Source of the DNA: Eledone cirrhosa
Taxonomy: Eukaryota
Direction: 5' to 3'
Length of the DNA: 64,000 nucleotides
NCBI GenBank assembly: GCA_964016885.1
Contig: OZ024743.1
Span: 167,338,001-167,402,000, forward strand
The translations under genes and the position numbers were made by a program. Below the pieces are notes generated by a model. It was not told the DNA's origin and searched no databases. It worked only from the letters and a program-made list of their open reading frames with translations. Positions 17,627 through 37,245 of this stretch are shown piece by piece. Positions within the stretch are counted from its first letter, which is position 1. Each line of letters starts with the position of its first letter.

Positions 17627-17686
17627 TTTTATAGCTCTGACGAATCCTACGGTTACGTAAGGAAGAAACATTGTAAGCCAATAAAA
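17627..17686 (+). ncRNA. Type I hammerhead ribozyme in a ~160-bp orphan fragment (17566-17723)
   Basis: TTTTATAGCT-CTGACGA-ATCCTACG(GTTA)CGTAAGGAA-GAAA-CATTG-TA-AGCCAATAAAA; A-A opposition at base of stem II. Confidence 0.6.
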
Positions 17687-23715: not shown

Positions 23716-26700
23716 TCTCTATATATATAAAACTGATGATGATGATGTGTGTGTGTATTTCCGTACCCACATTCTACAGTTTGCAACAGATTTTCTTCAA
23801 ATTGGGAACAAACCTGCCTTAGATAATGCCTCCAAGGAAGAGACCTGCCATTGGTCGAAAAACGCCGAAAGCTGGGAGAGGGAAAAGAAGAAAAGCAAAT
23901 GAATTATCAATGGAGGCTGTAATTAGACGATTGCAAGATGCTGATCATAAAGCTACTGCAAGAACATTAGAAAATTACGAGCAGTGTTGTGTTCGCCTAG
24001 CAAGGACTGCTGCTCGAGCTGCAGAGAATGGAGCGCAGTGTGTCCTCTGCCATACCAGGAATGCTGCAACGACCACTACTGCTCGAGCTGCAGAGAATGA
24101 GGCACAGCGTGTACTCCGCCAGACCTGGAATGCTGCCACAACTGCTGCTGCATGAGCTGCAGGGACCTCAGAAGACCGAAATAATCATCTGGAGATTAAT
24201 GTTCATCGAAGAGCTACTGGGCAGGGTATTTCAAGACCAAGCTGTTCACAATGGTTATTAAAAGCATTTGACTATAACCCTCACCTTAATTATGCTAACC
24301 ACCCTGACATGAACATTGGCAATATGTCTACCACTTGCCCATTTTGCAATGCCAAAAAGTAGTCAAGAGAAACACCTGGTATGTGTTGAGCAAATGGGAG
24401 GGTCACATTACACCGCCTGGAGGATCCACCACATCCATTGAAGCATCTTCTTACAGGCACAACAGCAGAGTCAAAACATTTCCTGGATAAGATCCGAAAG
24501 TACAATTGTGCCTTTCAAATGACCTCTTTTGGGGCAAATATTGTGAAGGAAGGTGGATTTATGCCCACTTTTAAAGTGCAGGAGCAAATCAAGATCCCCA
24601 ATTTCTTCAATTGTACTTTGTTGACAACTTCCAAGGACAAGCAGTTAGGAGGAACTCCATTTTGCTTGGTATTAACTTTGAGCTGACAATGAAACTGCAA
24701 GAGATGTTGCCCACGAAAAATAGCTATGTCATCAGCTTCAAATATGCCTTGGCAACAGTGACTGCATCAAATTTTAATGTGGTGATTGATGCTGCAAAAA
24801 GGCCATCTTGGGAACATGCAGGTCGCTGGCAAAAAAGGGGCCTTCCACATGCTCACATTCTGATTTGGCTATCAAAGATCAATTCCAATAACATTGACAA
24901 GATTATCTCTGCAGAGGTTCCAGATCCATCTAAAGACAAAGACCTCTATGATATAGTGAAGGCAAACATGGTGCATGGTCCATGTGGACGTGGCTTCAAT
25001 CTAAACTCGCCATGTTTGAAAGACAATGGGTCCACCAAAAAGTTTCCCAAGAAGTTCCTTCAAGAAACCCAGACTGGTAATGGTGGATATCCATCATACA
25101 GACGAAGGAAACCAGAAGATAGAGGATTTACAGCAAAGATTGGACAACTCGAGGTTGACAACAGATGGATTATTCTGTACTGCCCACTTCTGTCCAAGAT
25201 ATTCAACGCCCATATCAATGGTGAGTTTTGCAACTCCATAAATCCATCATGTACATATGTAAGTATGTAAATAAAGGTTCCGATGCTGCCATGTTTGGCC
25301 TTCAACAACTAAACAGCCGTGATGAGGTAACGCAGTATCAGGTCAGATGATACATCAGCAGCAACGAGGTCTTCTGGCACATTTTTGGCTTTCCACTACA
25401 CCAAAGGCACCCTGCCATTGAACAGCTTGCAGTGCACCTGCAAAATGGCCAAAGGGTGTACTTCACCAATGCTAATGCTGCTCAATTGTCAGAGGAACCA
25501 AGGGACACCACCCTCACTGCATTCTTCAAACTTTGTCAAGAAGATCCATTTGCTCAAACCTTGCTGTATCCCCAGGTGCCGTCCTACTATACCTGGGATA
25601 AAAAGAAATGGGCACGAAGAAAGGCAGGTCCAGCTGTTGATGGATACCCTGTATGAAGTTTGACAATTGTCTTGGGAGAGTTCACTCAGTGCATTCCAGC
25701 CAACATGAGTGTTTTTATCTCCGTCTACTACTGCATGAGGTCAGAGAACCAAGATTTTTCCAAGACCTAAAAACTGTTAATGGATATGTGTGTGTTACAT
25801 ACAAGGAAGCCTGCTTTAAGACTGTTAGAAGATGGTGCACTTTGGCAGAGGCTGCTTTATCACAATCACCTAAAAATCTCGGCACTATTTGCAGTATTGT
25901 TGCAACATGTAAACTGTGTAATCCTACCTCTTTGTGGCTCAAGTATAGAGATGACCTTTCTGAGGACGTCGAGCACAATTGCAGTACCCTGGCATGGAAG
26001 GTATCAGTGATGAGGTCTACAACAGAGCATTGATTGACATGGAAGACAGGATTGTTTCACTGGGTGGAAATCATTTGCTCACATGGCCTGCCCCAATCAT
26101 TCCAGACAAGGTCAAATACCGTTCCCACAGCTATCCTACGAGAAACATCCTATGACATTGATGCTCTTGCCCAATATGTTATTGAAACTGAACCACAACT
26201 GCTTCCAGACCAATAACGGGCCTACAGCACTATTGTTGACCATGTGCACCACCGAAAAAGAGGTATCTTCCTTGATGAAGCTGGAGGTTACAGGAAAAAC
26301 ATTTGTAACAAAGCTCCTCCTTGCAAAAGTGAGGCAGCACAAGGATATCGCGGTAGCTGTGGCCTCATCTGGGATTGCTGCAACTTTGTTGCCCGGTGGC
26401 AAGACAGCACACTCAACCTTTAAGCTCCCCCTGAATATAGCAACATCAGCAAGAGCTCAGATCAGGGGGAAGTCTTCAGAAGGTGTCATCTTATTATGTA
26501 GGATTAATACACCATTGCTCACAAAGGAGCTCTGGAAGCAGTAGATAGAGCCCTAAAAGATATCAGAGACTGTCAGGGTCCAATGGGAGGTGTAAGGCTT
26601 CTATTGTCTGGTGATTTCAGGGAGACTCTTCCCATCATTCCCAAAGGCACCAAGTCTTCTCCATTGTGGCAACAAGTTACAAAACTGACTCTTACCACTA

Positions 26701-27969
26701 ACATGAGAGCTTAACTGCACGGCAACCAACTGTCAGCCAAATTTGCAAAGGACATTTTGACACTTGGCGATGGCAAGGTGCATCGAGATGCTGGTGGAGA
26801 AATGACAGTCAGTCCAGTTTGTACCATTGTTAATACTGTGAATGATCTCAAAGACCAAGTGTTTCCAAATTTAAAGGAAAATTATGAAAACCACAATTCG
26901 CTGTGTCAAAGAGCAATACTGGCTCCAAAAAACAATGCTGTTTGTAAACTTAACGAACAGCTGATGCAGTCCCTTCCTGGTAGTCTTCACACTTATAAGT
27001 CAGTTGTTACAATCCCAGATCAAAATGAAATGGTAAATTATCCTCCTGAATTTCTCATTTTGTTGGAGCCTCCAAGACTACCTCCCCACATATTAGGACT
27101 TAAAGAAGGAACTTCGGTAATGCTGCTTCGGAATCTGGATCCGCCAAGACTCTGCAATGAGACATGCCTGGTGGTAAAGAATGTGATGTCACATGTTATC
27201 AAGGCCACCATTCTTTCTGGATGTGGAAAAGGTGATGATGTATTCATTCCAAGAATTCCTATCATTCCATCAGGAACAGAAATTCCATTTTCCTTTAGAA
27301 GACTGCAATTTCTAATTTGTGTCAGCTTTGCTGTGTCCATTAATAAATCTCAGGGTCAGACATTATTTGTGGCAGGACTTCACTTGGAAGAGTCATGTTT
27401 CTCACACGGATAATGGTATGTTGGCTGTTCTAGAGTGGGAAGCAAAAGAAATCTATTTGCATATGCTCGACAAGGAAAAACAAGGAACATTGTTTACAAA
27501 GAGGTCTTATAATCGCAATAACAAGGAGGTAGGTACGTAAGCACCTTTTCTTGAACAAATTTTACAGAATTTTTTTTCATTTTTTAACCAAAATCAGTTC
27601 ATTTTGTCTTAGGTAAATGCCAACAAAGAAGAGATCCTCCATTGATTGACAAATGGCGAGAGAAATAACCCCTTTTAACTGCTTCCTTCGAGCCGATTGA
27701 AGCACTGCAGTGCAATGCAACAAAACATCATAACTTCTGGAGTTCACAATCGATTTTCACCTAACTTGGCTATGTATATTCTACAGATAAATTTGAACAC
27801 TCAGAATTGGCACATATTGAGTAGGGGACCTCTGGGGGCAGGAACCCATTTTTGGAAAAAGCTGATGATTTTGTACAAGTATAGTTTTCGAAGAAGCACT
27901 GAAGTTTCGACATGAATGCTATACATGACTGCTATTCAATACCCGAGCAACACCGGGTACCTCTGCTAG
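23716..27969 (+). mobile_element. Helitron, decayed RepHel (HUH Rep + Pif1 helicase)
   Basis: 5' A|TCTCTATATATATAAAA; 3' hairpin CCCG-agcaacac-CGGG then CTAG|T; WQKRGLPHAHILIW, TGKTF, VASSGIAATLLPGGKTAHSTFKLP, SINKSQGQTL; many stops and frameshifts. Confidence 0.93.
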
Positions 27970-30789: not shown

Positions 30790-31957
30790 GAGAAGAAATT
30801 CCAAACTTGGAAGCAGGGACTAGAAAGAAAGGGTCTCAGTCAACCTGACAAAGACTAAGGTTCTTGTAAGTAGACGAGAAAACAGAACCCAGATCCCCTC
30901 AGGGAAATGGCCTTGCTCAGTATGTAGGAAAGGTGTAGGTAGGAACTCTATTCTCTACCCCAAATGCAAACAATGGGTACACAAGAGATGTAGCGGGATC
31001 TCAGGAAGCTTAATTAAGAATGTAGGCTTCACATGTAGCAGCTGTGCTAGGACACCAAACAGCCACAGGAAACAAGTACCACCAATCTCTGGGAGGGCTC
31101 TGTAGAAACAGTAGACGGCTTCTGCTACCTAGGTGACCGAATTAGCAGCGGAGGTGGGTGTTCAGAAAGTACAATAACTAGGGTGAGAACGGGATGGAAG
31201 AAGTTCAGGGAGTTACTGCCACTGCTAGCTGCAAAAGGCTTTTCCCTCAAAATGAAAGGCAGACTGTATGATGCGTGTATCCGAACAGCAATGTTACATG
31301 GTAGTGAGACCTGGGCGCTGAATGTGGAAGACTTGCGTAGATTAGAAAGAAACGAAGCCTGCATGCTCCAATGGATGTGTAATAGTAATATACGCGAGCA
31401 GCAAAGCATAAATGAATTGAGAGAGAGACTGAGCATAAGAGGAATCAAATGCTGTGTGCAGGAGAGGCGGTTGCGTTGGTATGGACATGTGATGCATATG
31501 AAGGATGCATAAAAAGGTGCAGAGTTCTAGAAGTTGATGGAAACTGCGGAGTGGGGAGACCCAAGAAGACCTGGGATGAGGTGATAAAAGCCGACCTTAC
31601 CCAATTAAACCGCTGGCGTCGCGCAGTAATACAGAATACCTGACCCCCCACGGGTACAAGCTGAAGCATATAGACAATATTCCCCCCCACCCGCCCACTG
31701 CAAAGTGGTCGTGGAAGGGCCACGGCAAAAAAGCACCCAGCCCACACTGTAAAGTGGACATGTAGGCGCCACGTAAAAAGCACCCAGCACTCACTGTAAA
31801 TGAGGTTGGTGTTAGGAAGGGCATCCAGCTGTAGAAATCAAGCCAGATCAGTTCCTGTATGAGCAAGGCATGGTCAGCCGACCGGACACTGCCCACAACA
31901 GGACAACCCGTCTAACCCATGCTAGCGTGGAAGAACGGACGTAAAACGATAATGATG
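30790..31957 (+). mobile_element. 5'-truncated RTE copy (third subfamily)
   Basis: [37 protein letters not shown]; 3' UTR with AGGAAGGGCATCCAGC. Confidence 0.88.
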
Positions 31958-32499
31958 TATTCGCACACGCCTTTCAATACATAAACTTTCATTCATGCAC
32001 ACACATACATACATCCCATTAAGCACACTTACATTCATGCACACACATGCATATATCGTACACTTTTTCCCAGACATTTCACAATACACACACTTGAAAT
32101 TTTAATGTCTTTTCATTACATTTAACTTAAATCTGCCATCCTAACAACTCATCTCCGATCGATCTTTTAAGACCTTCACAGGGATACTGGACCGGACACT
32201 GCCCACAACAGGACAACCCGTCTAACCCATGCTAGCGTGGAAGAACGGACGTAAAACGATAATGATGTATTCGCACACGCCTTTCAATACATAAACTTTC
32301 ATTCATGCACACACATACATACATCCCATTAAGCACACTTACATTCATGCACACACATGCATATATCGTACACTTTTTCCCAGACATTTCACAATACACA
32401 CACTTGAAATTTTAATGTCTTTTCATTACATTTAACTTAAATCTGCCATCCTAACAACTCATCTCCGATCGATCTTTTAAGACCTTCACAGGGATACTG
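31880..32499. repeat. Exact tandem duplication, 2 x 310 bp
   Basis: 31880-32189 equals 32190-32499; spans RTE tail plus flank. Confidence 0.92.
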
Positions 32500-32838
32500 C
32501 CTTGATAATGGTTTTTTAAACCTGAAAATATTTGGGATTATTAAATTTGCTACGGTAAGATTCTATTGTTATCTTGGCACCGTTAATTTTCTAATGCATT
32601 GTATGGTTTTAAAAATTATTTAAATTTATATATCCTATTCAACAATACTTCAAGCAAACTACAACACTCTGATATATATATATATATATATGAATGTATA
32701 TATATATATATATATGAATATAGACATAGAATATTCGAAAATATTCTGTATGTTTATAATAAACATTTTGAAGACCTAATCGCTATAGAATAGAATACGT
32801 CACGTATTACAATTAGATTCTCGATAAAAGCAAGGGAA

Positions 32839-34431
32839 GTAATCTACGCGTTTCATTCTTGTTAGAAATCATCAGGACTACATATCCAGTGCTTTTATCG
32901 AGAATGACACAGCTAGAGACTTATAGAATACTTAGCTGTGTACAGTAACTGGTTTGAAAGAGCGGTTGCCGGTCCGGCAGAAATTAGAAATTGGAATAAA
33001 TGCTCTGAAATAGCGATATATATGTGAATATAGACATAGAATATTCGAAAATATTCTGTATGTTTATAATAAACATTTTGAAGACCTAATCGCTATAGAA
33101 TAGAATACGTCACGTATTACAATTAGATTCTCGATAAAAGCAAGGGAAGTAATCTACGCGTTTCATTCTTGTTAGAAATCATCAGGACTACATATCCAGT
33201 GCTTTTATCGAGAATGACACAGCTAGAGACTTATAGAATACTTAGCTGTGTACAGTAACTGGTTTGAAAGAGCGGTTGCCGGTCCGGCAGAAATTAGAAA
33301 TTGGAATAAATGCTCTGAAATAGCGATATATATGTGAATATAGACATAGAATATTCGAAAATATTCTGTATGTTTATAATAAACATTTTGAAGACCTAAT
33401 CGCTATAGAATAGAATACGTCACGTATTACAATTAGATTCTCGATAAAAGCAAGGGAAGTAATCTACGCGTTTCATTCTTGTTAGAAATCATCAGGACTA
33501 CATATCCAGTGCTTTTATCGAGAATGACACAGCTAGAGACTTATAGAATACTTAGCTGTGTACAGTAACTGGTTTGAAAGAGCGGTTGCCGGTCCGGCAG
33601 AAATTAGAAATTGGAATAAATGCTCTGAAATAGCGATATATATGTGAATATAGACATAGAATATTCGAAAATATTCTGTATGTTTATAATAAACATTTTG
33701 AAGACCTAATCGCTATAGAATAGAATACGTCACGTATTACAATTAGATTCTCGATAAAAGCAAGGGAAGTAATCTACGCGTTTCATTCTTGTTAGAAATC
33801 ATCAGGACTACATATCCAGTGCTTTTATCGAGAATGACACAGCTAGAGACTTATAGAATACTTAGCTGTGTACAGTAACTGGTTTGAAAGAGCGGTTGCC
33901 GGTCCGGCAGAAATTAGAAATTGGAATAAATGCTCTGAAATAGCGATATATATGTGAATATAGACATAGAATATTCGAAAATATTCTGTATGTTTATAAT
34001 AAACATTTTGAAGACCTAATCGCTATAGAATAGAATACGTCACGTATTACAATTAGATTCTCGATAAAAGCAAGGGAAGTAATCTACGCGTTTCATTCTT
34101 GTTAGAAATCATCAGGACTACATATCCAGTGCTTTTATCGAGAATGACACAGCTAGAGACTTATAGAATACTTAGCTGTGTACAGTAACTGGTTTGAAAG
34201 AGCGGTTGCCGGTCCGGCAGAAATTAGAAATTGGAATAAATGCTCTGAAATAGCGATATATATGTGAATATAGACATAGAATATTCGAAAATATTCTGTA
34301 TGTTTATAATAAACATTTTGAAGACCTAATCGCTATAGAATAGAATACGTCACGTATTACAATTAGATTCTCGATAAAAGCAAGGGAAGTAATCTACGCG
34401 TTTCATTCTTGTTAGAAATCATCAGGACTAC
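32839..34431 (-). ncRNA. Six type I hammerhead ribozymes (left coordinates 32839, 33149, 33459, 33769, 34079, 34389; 43 nt each)
   Basis: Reverse complement of the motif at 34550-34592. Confidence 0.9.
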
Positions 34432-34549
34432 ATATCCAGTGCTTTTATCGAGAATGACACAGCTAGAGACTTATAGAATACTTAGCTGTACACAGCTAAG
34501 TATTCTATAAGTCTCTAGCTGTGTCATTCTCGATAAAAGCACTGGATAT

Positions 34550-36452
34550 GTAGTCCTGATGATTTCTAACAAGAATGAAACGCGTAGATTACTTCCCTTG
34601 CTTTTATCGAGAATCTAATTGTAATACGTGACGTATTCTATTCTATAGCGATTAGGTCTTCAAAATGTTTATTATAAACATACAGAATATTTTCGAATAT
34701 TCTATGTCTATATTCACATATATATCGCTATTTCAGAGCATTTATTCCAATTTCTAATTTCTGCCGGACCGGCAACCGCTCTTTCAAACCAGTTACTGTA
34801 CACAGCTAAGTATTCTATAAGTCTCTAGCTGTGTCATTCTCGATAAAAGCACTGGATATGTAGTCCTGATGATTTCTAACAAGAATGAAACGCGTAGATT
34901 ACTTCCCTTGCTTTTATCGAGAATCTAATTGTAATACGTGACGTATTCTATTCTATAGCGATTAGGTCTTCAAAATGTTTATTATAAACATACAGAATAT
35001 TTTCGAATATTCTATGTCTATATTCACATATATATCGCTATTTCAGAGCATTTATTCCAATTTCTAATTTCTGCCGGACCGGCAACCGCTCTTTCAAACC
35101 AGTTACTGTACACAGCTAAGTATTCTATAAGTCTCTAGCTGTGTCATTCTCGATAAAAGCACTGGATATGTAGTCCTGATGATTTCTAACAAGAATGAAA
35201 CGCGTAGATTACTTCCCTTGCTTTTATCGAGAATCTAATTGTAATACGTGACGTATTCTATTCTATAGCGATTAGGTCTTCAAAATGTTTATTATAAACA
35301 TACAGAATATTTTCGAATATTCTATGTCTATATTCACATATATATCGCTATTTCAGAGCATTTATTCCAATTTCTAATTTCTGCCGGACCGGCAACCGCT
35401 CTTTCAAACCAGTTACTGTACACAGCTAAGTATTCTATAAGTCTCTAGCTGTGTCATTCTCGATAAAAGCACTGGATATGTAGTCCTGATGATTTCTAAC
35501 AAGAATGAAACGCGTAGATTACTTCCCTTGCTTTTATCGAGAATCTAATTGTAATACGTGACGTATTCTATTCTATAGCGATTAGGTCTTCAAAATGTTT
35601 ATTATAAACATACAGAATATTTTCGAATATTCTATGTCTATATTCACATATATATCGCTATTTCAGAGCATTTATTCCAATTTCTAATTTCTGCCGGACC
35701 GGCAACCGCTCTTTCAAACCAGTTACTGTACACAGCTAAGTATTCTATAAGTCTCTAGCTGTGTCATTCTCGATAAAAGCACTGGATATGTAGTCCTGAT
35801 GATTTCTAACAAGAATGAAACGCGTAGATTACTTCCCTTGCTTTTATCGAGAATCTAATTGTAATACGTGACGTATTCTATTCTATAGCGATTAGGTCTT
35901 CAAAATGTTTATTATAAACATACAGAATATTTTCGAATATTCTATGTCTATATTCACATATATATCGCTATTTCAGAGCATTTATTCCAATTTCTAATTT
36001 CTGCCGGACCGGCAACCGCTCTTTCAAACCAGTTACTGTACACAGCTAAGTATTCTATAAGTCTCTAGCTGTGTCATTCTCGATAAAAGCACTGGATATG
36101 TAGTCCTGATGATTTCTAACAAGAATGAAACGCGTAGATTACTTCCCTTGCTTTTATCGAGAATCTAATTGTAATACGTGACGTATTCTATTCTATAGCG
36201 ATTAGGTCTTCAAAATGTTTATTATAAACATACAGAATATTTTCGAATATTCTATGTCTATATTCACATATATATCGCTATTTCAGAGCATTTATTCCAA
36301 TTTCTAATTTCTGCCGGACCGGCAACCGCTCTTTCAAACCAGTTACTGTACACAGCTAAGTATTCTATAAGTCTCTAGCTGTGTCATTCTCGATAAAAGC
36401 ACTGGATATGTAGTCCTGATGATTTCTAACAAGAATGAAACGCGTAGATTAC
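34550..36452 (+). ncRNA. Seven type I hammerhead ribozymes (starts 34550, 34860, 35170, 35480, 35790, 36100, 36410)
   Basis: GTAGTC-CTGATGA-TTTCT(AACA)AGAAT-GAAA-CGCG-TA-GATTAC; stem I extended by a 16-bp helix ATTCTCGATAAAAGCA/TGCTTTTATCGAGAAT; predicted cleavage after GUA (34586). Confidence 0.92.
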
Positions 36453-36631
36453 TTCCCTTGCTTTTATCGAGAATCTAATTGTAATACGTGACGTATTCTA
36501 TTCTATAGCGATTAGGTCTTCAAAATGTTTATTATAAACATACAGAATATTTTCGAATATTCTATGTCTATATTCACATATATATCGCTATTTCAGAGCA
36601 TTTATTCCAATTTATATATATATATATATAT

Positions 36632-37037
36632 GAATGTATATATAGTATATTTGGCAATATACTGTATGCTTAATTAAAAGCATTTTGAAGACCTTGTGTT
36701 ATTATTTTAAAGTAGTGACTATGTCACTTCTTTTTTCAACAAACAAAGGGAGATAAGCTGACAGATCTGTTTCACACTGTTGGTGATCATCAGAGCTATA
36801 AGAATCCAACATTTATAATTTTCAACAGACAAAGCGAGTGCTAAGCTCTGATGATTACCAACAGTATGAAACAGATCTGTCAGCTTATCTCTCCCTTTGT
36901 TTGTTGAAAAAAGAAGTAAGTGACATAGTCACTACTTTAAAATAATAGCGCAAGGTCTTCAAAATGCTTTAAATTAAGCATACAGTATATTGCCAAATAT
37001 ACTATGTATACATCGCTATTTCAGAGCACCAATTCTA
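36632..37037 (+). mobile_element. Sister retrozyme-like fold-back element with two hammerheads (36842-36887 +, 36754-36797 -)
   Basis: TAAGCT-CTGATGA-TTAC(CAACA)GTAT-GAAA-CAGATCTG-TC-AGCTTA; 36632-36797 is an inverted copy of ~36844-37012; 3' tail homologous to the 310-mer. Confidence 0.85.
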
Positions 37038-37058
37038 ATATATATATATATATATATA

Positions 37059-37245
37059 TCATCATCATCATCATCATTTAACGTTAATCTTTCATGCTAG
37101 CATGGGTTAGCGAATTGTCTTATTGTGAGACAAGTCAGATCAGATGACCATGTTTTGCTCATACAGAACTATTTCTGACTTGGTTTCTATGGCTTGATGC
37201 CCTTCCTAAGGCCAACCACATTACAGCATGGACTGGGTGCTTTCT
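37059..37245 (-). mobile_element. Decayed RTE/SINE 3' tail
   Basis: (CAT)n, TTTAACGT...CATGCTAGCATGGGTT, GATGCCCTTCCTAA. Confidence 0.6.

What the first reader, a model, noticed from the sequence alone, without database searches (positions are those of the whole stretch)
36632..37037. Divergent sister hammerhead element sharing architecture and a conserved 3' tail with the 310-mer
Seen: different stem sequences but the same fold (6-bp stem I, internal loop, 16-bp extension TTTTCAACAGACAAAG/CTTTGTTTGTTGAAAA, U-U closing stem II, AACA-containing loop, palindromic stem III ACAGAUCUGU, GUC site). Downstream both elements share AGGTCTTCAAAATG...CATACAG.ATATT...ATCGCTATTTCAGAGCA...CCAATT and both insertions end there. 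Stem II differs between the two arms by a paired change (TAC/GTA vs CAC/GTG). Inference: a family with structural covariation whose conserved tail is the cis signal where a partner RT initiates, internal to the monomer rather than at the cleavage site. Its diverged arms argue that fold-back insertion is biological and not an assembly artefact.
Basis: partly seen in the sequence, partly recalled or inferred. Interest (0 to 1): 0.78.

Follow-up and report, generated by a model that had tools for sequence, protein, structure and literature searches.

The report
Two-armed sister retrozyme with Penelope footprint
This 400-base fold-back is two partial, mirror-image copies of a small non-coding repeat with a predicted self-cutting RNA motif, related to the 310-base repeat beside it; it is a known kind of element (an animal retrozyme), likely pasted in by Penelope-type jumping-gene enzymes, and a predicted RNA fold shared by both repeats may mark where copying starts.

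Summary
Real, and of a known kind. 36632-37039 is a head-to-head fold-back of two sub-unit-length arms of a ~300-320-nt type I hammerhead repeat, homologous to the adjacent 310-mer. Of 46 hand-aligned base pairs, 13 changed on both sides and none broke.

- Only the right arm has the full fold.
- Only the right arms of both elements carry the tail; both left arms stop 24-28 nt earlier.
- The U-U pair varies within the family.

An inverted truncated copy plus a one-sided tail is the published Penelope-like element (PLE) footprint, and two internal start sites were shown in vitro for a PLE (PMC11167929).

New here: a predicted shared 3' RNA domain at the short end; a 31-32-nt duplication showing the 310 array landed later, in the sister's left end; and arm differences matching family variants, hinting at two template RNAs. 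No partner PLE was found. This copy is probably inert, since the arms pair over the ribozyme. The scan noted such two-armed retrozymes many times before in this (likely octopus) genome.

The parts
36632..36797 (-). Left arm, about 0.55 monomer. 5' end cut inside stem I; 3' end at the 'short' end point, merging into (AT)9; no tail
   Evidence: fold z +1.05
36796..37039 (+). Right arm, about 0.8 monomer: complete hammerhead domain, 3' domain and tail; ends at the 'long' end point (37037-37039, last two bases shared with the (AT)n target)
36796..36797 (.). Head-to-head inversion junction with 2-nt microhomology
   Evidence: X4 record 10 and loose ends before 36796 in X1, X4 and X5 show where the unit's own sequence starts; left arm match ends at 36797
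36819..36910 (+). Type I hammerhead with extended helix I: extension, internal loop, stem I, core 36848-36854, stem II 36856-36866, stem III 36871-36880, predicted cut after 36881
   Evidence: activity not tested
36760..36797 (-). Second hammerhead core (left arm), stem II variant CAC/GTG, only 4 bp of stem I, predicted cut after 36760
   Evidence: Rfam HH9 13.5 bits, E 4.6
36945..37019 (+). Predicted 3' RNA domain shared with the 310-mer: basal helix 36945-50/37014-19 enclosing a conserved single-stranded run and two hairpins (36964-36981, 36984-37003); the short end point sits at the 5' edge of the basal helix's 3' strand
   Evidence: 20 pairs, 18 same, 2 changed on both sides, 0 broken; z -2.55 and -1.96
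37014..37039 (+). One-sided tail, 24-26 nt (28 nt in the 310 array, 36586-36613)
   Evidence: same end recurs as a loose end of 14 X1 contigs
36614..36631 (.). (AT)9 target tract at the left end
37038..37059 (.). (AT)11 target tract at the right end, followed by the 3' end of an unrelated repeat
32706..36613 (.). Neighbouring two-armed 310-mer array (5.8 units on minus, 6.9 on plus), same short-left and long-right ends; inferred to be the later insertion
36613..36644 (+). Right copy of a 31-32-nt duplication flanking the 310 array (left copy 32673-32704); it includes the first 13 nt of the sister's left arm. Read as a target-site duplication

Best explanation
This is a two-armed, sub-unit-length insertion of a non-coding type I hammerhead repeat related to the adjacent 310-mer, likely a non-LTR retrozyme of about 300-320 nt that was likely copied into an (AT)n tract by a Penelope-like (PLE) reverse transcriptase/GIY-YIG protein acting in trans.

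Proposed steps:
(1) Source copies elsewhere are transcribed, and their hammerheads cut the RNA into monomers or circles (inferred from other animals).
(2) The PLE protein binds the RNA, probably at the conserved 3' domain (inferred).
(3) It nicks both strands of (AT)n about 30 nt apart (inferred from the 31-32-nt duplication around the 310 array).
(4) Each 3'-OH primes cDNA at one of two internal sites about 25 nt apart, giving one short-ended and one tailed arm (the ends are shown; the priming is inferred from in vitro PLE work).
(5) The two cDNAs stop early and join head-to-head by microhomology (junction shown).

The sister's two arms probably came from two different family RNAs (about even odds). 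The 310 array later inserted into the sister's left end. This copy itself is probably inert: neither arm is a full unit, and a read-through transcript would pair arm to arm over the ribozyme.
For: Anatomy.

Covariation with the 310-mer: of 46 hand-aligned pairs, 31 are the same, 13 changed on both sides, 2 on one side, 0 broken.

Family: 3334 X1 contigs were laid on 36304-37100, with up to 106 contigs showing a given variant on the sister's right arm; sister-type pieces also occur in X4 and X5. Loose ends after 36331/36332 carry the same letters as loose ends before 36796, which closes the unit at about 300-320 nt with no room for an ORF.

Recurrent ends in X1: short end, 10 contigs at 36275/36585; sister-type long end, 14 contigs at 36290; 310-type long end, 1 contig at 36306.

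Literature: an inverted 5'-truncated copy, a 30-40-bp one-sided tail and (TA)n targeting are PLE traits (PMC8557442; PMC3846280). A purified PLE cuts and extends both strands at AT-rich DNA and starts at two internal sites bounding the tail (PMC11167929). PLE-type RT/GIY-YIG remnants occur in the window.

Inert copy: the whole insertion folds arm to arm at -260 kcal/mol against -60 for the right arm alone.
Against: No partner was found. The window's PLE ends show no significant similarity to either 3' region (6 of 6 comparisons at shuffle level), and the tail 17-mer occurs only in the two retrozymes.

Cleavage, circles and transcription were not shown.

The unit length is stitched from separate loose ends, not read in one contig. 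The end tally is partial: 180 and 41 loose-end rows were not shown, and two consensus rows had agreement of only 0.66-0.67.

The covariation count uses two sequences and helices I chose by hand. One hairpin of the 3' domain has pair probability of only about 0.33 in the 310-mer.

The duplication (31-32 nt) is longer than the 8-10 bp reported for rotifer PLEs, and the tail (24-28 nt) is shorter than the usual 30-40.
Confidence: 0.8

Rival explanations
1. The fold-back is only the 3' end (pseudo-LTR) of an autonomous coding PLE, truncated on both arms, and not a self-contained retrozyme unit.
For: Both arms are shorter than a unit. Short two-armed PLE end-pieces with hammerheads on opposite strands are described (PMC4209133), and one sits in this window at 2331-3034. 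Retrozymes resemble pLTRs (preprint).
Against: It is collinear with the non-coding 310-mer from the motif upstream of the hammerhead to the tail. Loose ends link the tail back to the sequence upstream of 36796 within about 70 nt. Its hammerhead has a canonical short stem II, not the long bulged stem II seen in the window's PLE ends.
Confidence: 0.11
2. Sub-question on step 4: both sister arms were copied from one RNA (one circle primed twice), and their differences arose later by mutation or by gene conversion of one arm.
For: The 310 array fits one template lineage: all compared full units of both arms are identical and share A at 36345-equivalent sites, where runs X1, X4, X5, X8 and X10 show only C. 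At least two sister differences look private (36699, 36971), so the locus has aged. Short indels in repeated letters can recur.
Against: Several arm differences are multi-copy family variants in X1: 36856 C (847 depth units, 15 contigs), the 2-nt indel at 36888 (568, 20 contigs; also X4 and X5) and the 4-nt indel (89, 3 contigs; also X5), against depths of 4-13 for the long single contigs listed. A pair-keeping double change among 6 random substitutions has p = 0.016-0.034.
Confidence: 0.4
3. A DNA-level element: a MITE-like fold-back with long terminal inverted repeats, or a local inverted duplication, that happens to contain hammerhead letters.
For: About 165-bp inverted arms and an AT target.
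Against: The ends are asymmetric by a 24-26-nt tail, inversion points differ between copies, and the 310 relative forms multi-unit arms with the same two ends.
Confidence: 0.05
4. An assembly or library artefact (fold-back chimera).
For: The neighbouring 310 array has identical arms, and an unexplained exact 310-bp duplication lies at 31880-32499. No laid contig spans the stretch.
Against: The sister's arms differ at 8 places that partly match family variants. An artefact would not make unequal ends at the same two points in two elements, or a flanking duplication.
Confidence: 0.03

Closest known systems
Metazoan non-LTR retrozymes (Cervera and de la Pena 2020, PMC7229834: passages and sections 14 and 17 read; Li, Clavereau and Pollet 2026, bioRxiv 10.64898/2026.07.22.740005: parts 1-3 of 5 read)
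   Same: Non-coding 150-450-bp low-GC unit with a type I hammerhead; 6-bp helix I and palindromic helix III; axolotl HHR_Amex2 also has a U-U at the base of helix II; long duplications at insertion; PLEs proposed as the mobiliser.
   Different: This locus is not a tandem: two partial arms on opposite strands. In what I read, neither paper describes two-armed insertions, a one-sided tail or a structured 3' domain, and neither names an octopus family. Cleavage and circles were shown there, not here.
Inverted-pLTR insertions of EN+ Penelope-like elements (Pen2a_Av, PMC3846280, passages; Naiad and Hydra, PMC8557442, passages and section 11)
   Same: Inverted 5'-truncated copy, head-to-head junction, tail on one end only, (TA)n targets, hammerhead in the repeat.
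   Different: No ORF; tail 24-28 nt against 30-40; duplication 31-32 nt against 8-10 in the rotifer.
PAc, Poseidon element of Anolis (Frangieh et al. 2024, PMC11167929, parts 1-2 of 4 read)
   Same: Two internal end points downstream of the hammerhead, bounding the tail; AT-rich target; both strands used.
   Different: PAc starts in an AC-rich stem loop inside its ORF, at a site not homologous to the target. Here the short end lies in a UA tract that could pair with the (AT)n target, next to a predicted multi-helix domain.

Membership tests
Type I hammerhead ribozyme | Core CUGANGA ... GAAA ... UH with helices I-III (consensus recalled; helix sizes from PMC4209133) | tested here: met
   Right arm has all of them; the left arm has the core but only 4 bp of helix I
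Type I hammerhead ribozyme | Reaches an Rfam hammerhead gathering score | tested here: not met
   0 matches at gathering; HH9 19.2 and 13.5 bits against 52, right arm not listed
Type I hammerhead ribozyme | Self-cleavage | not testable with these tools
   No assay. 8 of 9 predicted Xenopus elements did not cut in the preprint, so a motif is no proof
Non-LTR retrozyme | Non-coding 150-450-bp unit, GC below 50% | tested here: met
   No ORF of 90 aa between 31911 and 39469; GC 0.33; unit about 300-320 nt from loose ends
Non-LTR retrozyme | Tandem units, each with a hammerhead | tested here: inconclusive
   Met for the 310-mer. This sister locus has under one unit per arm; tandem or circular continuity of the sister unit is inferred from separate loose ends only
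Non-LTR retrozyme | Multi-copy dispersed family | tested here: met
   Many distinct variant contigs on the sister in X1; pieces in X4 and X5
Non-LTR retrozyme | Expressed as linear and circular monomer RNA | not testable with these tools
   Only contigs could be laid; they cannot show RNA ends or circles
EN+ PLE insertion footprint | Inverted 5'-truncated copy joined head-to-head | tested here: met
EN+ PLE insertion footprint | Tail at one end only | tested here: met
   24-26 nt in the sister, 28 nt in the 310 array; shorter than the 30-40 bp quoted in PMC8557442
EN+ PLE insertion footprint | AT-rich or (TA)n target with duplication | tested here: met
   (AT)n on both sides; 31-32-nt duplication visible for the 310 array; invisible for the sister
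Autonomous PLE | RT plus GIY-YIG ORF | tested here: not met
   No ORF in the element
Non-autonomous partner of a named PLE family | 3' sequence shared with a coding PLE | tested here: inconclusive
   Not shared with the 3 PLE-type ends in the window; host genome not held

The most novel reading that the evidence does not exclude
The two subfamilies expose the RNA element that recruits a Penelope-type reverse transcriptase in trans: a conserved basal helix with two hairpins, whose 3' strand fixes the short start site beside a UA tract that pairs with the (AT)n target. The sister's mismatched arms show that a PLE dimer can copy two different RNA molecules, one from each side of a ~30-nt staggered cut, so two-armed insertions need not come from one circle.
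Probability: 0.3. Interest if true: 0.62.

Novelty: new member of a known kind. Interest (0 to 1): 0.36.

Why it matters
That PLE proteins mobilise animal retrozymes has been proposed (PMC7229834) and supported by distribution and pLTR similarity (2026 preprint), but the RNA signal and the copying route are untested. A diverged pair with different stems but the same two end points narrows the candidate cis element to about 95 nt with a predicted fold, which can be mutated in the existing in vitro PLE assay. The nested insertion also makes a target duplication visible that pure (AT)n normally hides. The element class and the footprint are both known, so the gain is a handle on mechanism, not a new system.

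Tried and rejected
- Host genome: not held, so genomic copies could not be collected and 3' junctions could not be plotted in full.
- Two-motif pattern from the 3' region: 0 matches in metagenome contigs and 0 in viral contigs.
- Tail 17-mer in metagenome contigs: 61 loci, all read as chance. The longest alignment to either element was 28 nt, none had a hammerhead core upstream, and none had a tblastn match to the window's PLE proteins.
- Window PLE ends as partner: the same AT-then-CG step opens the long end of the PLE-type piece at 2331-3034, but I defined that motif after seeing it and the alignments were at shuffle level. Not counted.
- Rfam miRNA hits: only the fold-back hairpin, all far below gathering score.
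- Runs: no RNA holder listed.
- 'Ruler' idea, that the long end is set by distance and not sequence: the two window ends differ by 3-5 homologous bases, but one X1 310-type contig ends at the sister's position. Undecided.
- Covariance model: not built. Only two complete hammerheads were in hand, and MAFFT misaligned stem III and the 3' strand of stem I, so pairs were counted by hand.
- The double-change test had one helix mis-set; it was corrected, and I cite that one.
- Earlier-finding look-ups by sequence, near and relatives were blank.
- PLE clade of the 14521-17285 remnant: not determined.

Full report
What is there. The window is animal DNA rich in (AT)n tracts and retroelement remnants. 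The best hit of a PLE-like reading frame at 14864-16237 is an Octopus vulgaris protein at 71% identity, so the host is likely an octopus. The finding, 36632-37039, is a fold-back. A left arm on the minus strand (36632-36797) and a right arm on the plus strand (36796-37039) meet at their 5' ends and point their 3' ends outward into (AT)9 and (AT)11. Contigs of public runs show where the unit's own sequence starts, which puts the junction at 36796-36797 with 2 nt of microhomology. Just to the left lies a two-armed array of the 310-mer: 5.8 units on minus and 6.9 on plus.

The hammerhead. The right arm has every core letter of a type I hammerhead (consensus recalled), a 6-bp stem I, a 3-bp stem II on a U-U, a palindromic stem III, a GUC site and a 16-pair extension. 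It folds at z = -5.13, the 310-mer's at -6.31, with 0 of 200 shuffles as good in each case. I aligned seven helices by hand between the two elements. Of 46 pairs, 31 are the same, 13 changed on both sides, 2 on one side and none is broken; 11 of the 13 are in the hammerhead domain. This is two sequences with helices chosen by me, so it is descriptive and not a formal test. Rfam gives no match at gathering score and only weak HH9 matches below it, none for the right arm. The left arm starts inside stem I, lacks the extension and has no fold signal (z = +1.05). Stem III and the triplet differ between the two elements (10-nt palindrome with GUC; 6-nt with GUA). The U-U is variable: in run X1 the first U is A in 63% of depth on the sister and 21% on the 310-mer. 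The axolotl retrozyme HHR_Amex2 has the same U-U (PMC7229834).

The 3' region. Its similarity to the 310-mer is far beyond chance (score 72, shuffle maximum 34 of 1000). It is more than a string of motifs. Both elements can form a basal helix (36945-50 with 37014-19 in the sister) around a conserved unpaired run and two hairpins, each hairpin with one change on both sides. Support is moderate: z = -2.55 and -1.96, and the first hairpin has pair probability near 0.33 in the 310-mer against 0.7-0.98 in the sister. In X1 the two sides of that hairpin's changed pair vary at similar rates (36967 C>T 61%, 36978 G>A 67%), but these are not phased and may include 310-type contigs.

The ends. Both right arms run through the tail: 24-26 nt in the sister and 28 nt in the 310 array, counted from the CG. 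Both left arms stop at the TA tract just before that CG. These two points lie 132 and 156-158 nt (sister) or 139 and 167 nt (310-mer) downstream of the predicted cut. They recur elsewhere. Among the loose ends shown for X1, 10 contigs leave at the short point into (AT)n, 14 carry the sister's long end followed by AT-rich letters, and 1 leaves 3 nt past the 310 long end. Another 31 contigs leave at 37013, a mix of short ends and variants with about 12 more letters there. This is not a full tally: 180 and 41 rows were not shown. Loose ends after 36331/36332 carry the same letters as those before 36796, which closes the sister unit at about 300-320 nt. That is stitched from separate contigs.

Order of events. 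The 310 array is flanked by an identical 32-nt stretch (32673-32704 and 36613-36644; one base is ambiguous) that contains the first 13 nt of the sister's left arm. The simplest reading is a target-site duplication: the array landed later, in the sister's left end, through a stagger of about 31 nt. All compared full 310 units are identical (6 on the right arm, 4 on the left), including an A where five runs show only C, so the array is young and comes from one source lineage.

One template or two. The sister's arms differ at 6 substitutions and 2 indels over 164 shared columns. Three of these are multi-copy variants in X1: the stem II C (847 depth units, 15 contigs), the 2-nt indel (568, 20 contigs; also X4 and X5) and the 4-nt indel (89, 3 contigs; also X5), against depths of 4-13 for the long single contigs listed. 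A pair-keeping double change has p = 0.016-0.034 under random substitution. At least two differences look private. I put two template RNAs at about even odds; one RNA plus later mutation or conversion remains open. Several earlier notes of this scan favour one circle primed twice, and the 310 array here fits that.

How it likely works. Shown: anatomy, covariation, two end points, microhomology junction, duplication, multi-copy family. From the literature: EN+ PLEs leave an inverted 5'-truncated copy and a 30-40-bp tail at one end, and several clades target (TA)n (PMC8557442; PMC3846280). A purified PLE protein cuts and extends both strands at AT-rich DNA and starts at two internal RNA sites that bound the tail, without needing ribozyme cleavage (PMC11167929). 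Inferred: a PLE protein in trans binds the retrozyme RNA at the 3' domain, nicks both strands, primes one cDNA at each site, and the two are joined head-to-head. This copy is probably dead. Each arm is under one unit with one hammerhead, and a read-through transcript folds arm on arm at -260 kcal/mol, burying the core.

Partner. Not found. The window has a PLE-type remnant at 14521-17285 (relatives with RT and GIY-YIG domains) and end-pieces at 2331-3034 and 57139-57319, but none shares the 3' region (0 of 6 comparisons above shuffle level). Metagenome and viral scans gave nothing real. The host genome was not available.

What is known. The class is the metazoan non-LTR retrozyme (PMC7229834: passages and sections 14 and 17; the 2026 preprint: parts 1-3 of 5). 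The footprint is the PLE one. Five paper searches listed no paper whose title or abstract start describes octopus retrozymes or two-armed retrozyme insertions. The library lacks most subscription journals, I saw only the listed part of each result (for example 15 of 213), and I read no supplements; those of the preprint, PMC7229834 and PMC8557442 may bear on this. PMC4209133 was read as passages. The scan's own earlier notes describe the same two-armed, short- and long-ended pattern for many families in this genome, including a pair of diverged ~310-nt monomers. They are unchecked AI notes and I do not count them as support.

Verdict. A real element and a new member of a known kind. The internal-initiation idea fits but is the known PLE mechanism, with two sites and not one. 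The additions are the predicted 3' domain, the visible duplication and the two-template hint. Interest 0.36.

Noticed in passing
window 36170-36400, run X10: 14 changed sites that run X1 lacks or nearly lacks are all A>G or T>C (chance about 0.003 from base composition). This could be A-to-I editing of double-stranded RNA from fold-back copies, but the run's kind is not on record and it is another sample.
   Followed up: partly
window 31880-32499: Exact two-copy tandem duplication of unrelated sequence with a 310-bp period, the same as the retrozyme unit, ending about 170 bp left of the array. Coincidence, assembly effect or by-product; unexplained.
   Followed up: no
window 14521-17285: 5'-truncated PLE-type element between (AT)n tracts: RT frame with one stop, GIY-YIG-like C-terminus, hammerhead-like motif at 17048. 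Best hit an Octopus vulgaris protein, 71%.
   Followed up: partly
window 2331-3034 and 57139-57319: End-pieces of related PLEs. 2331-3034 is two-armed with a short left end and a longer right end that continues with CG after the same AT step as in the retrozymes; hammerhead-like motif at 2794.
   Followed up: partly
window 3368-5974 (+) and 53648-56365 (-): Two copies, 94% alike, of a LINE with AP endonuclease, RT and a C-terminal PHD finger; a further PHD fragment at 30824-31105.
   Followed up: no
window 26038-27413: PIF1 helicase fragments, possibly a Helitron remnant.
   Followed up: no
window 17589-17646: 27-bp tandem pair, each copy with a CTGACGA core-like word, between (AT)n tracts; possibly another PLE end-piece.
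   Followed up: no
window 42717-44719: 53-bp minisatellite, about 38 copies.
   Followed up: no
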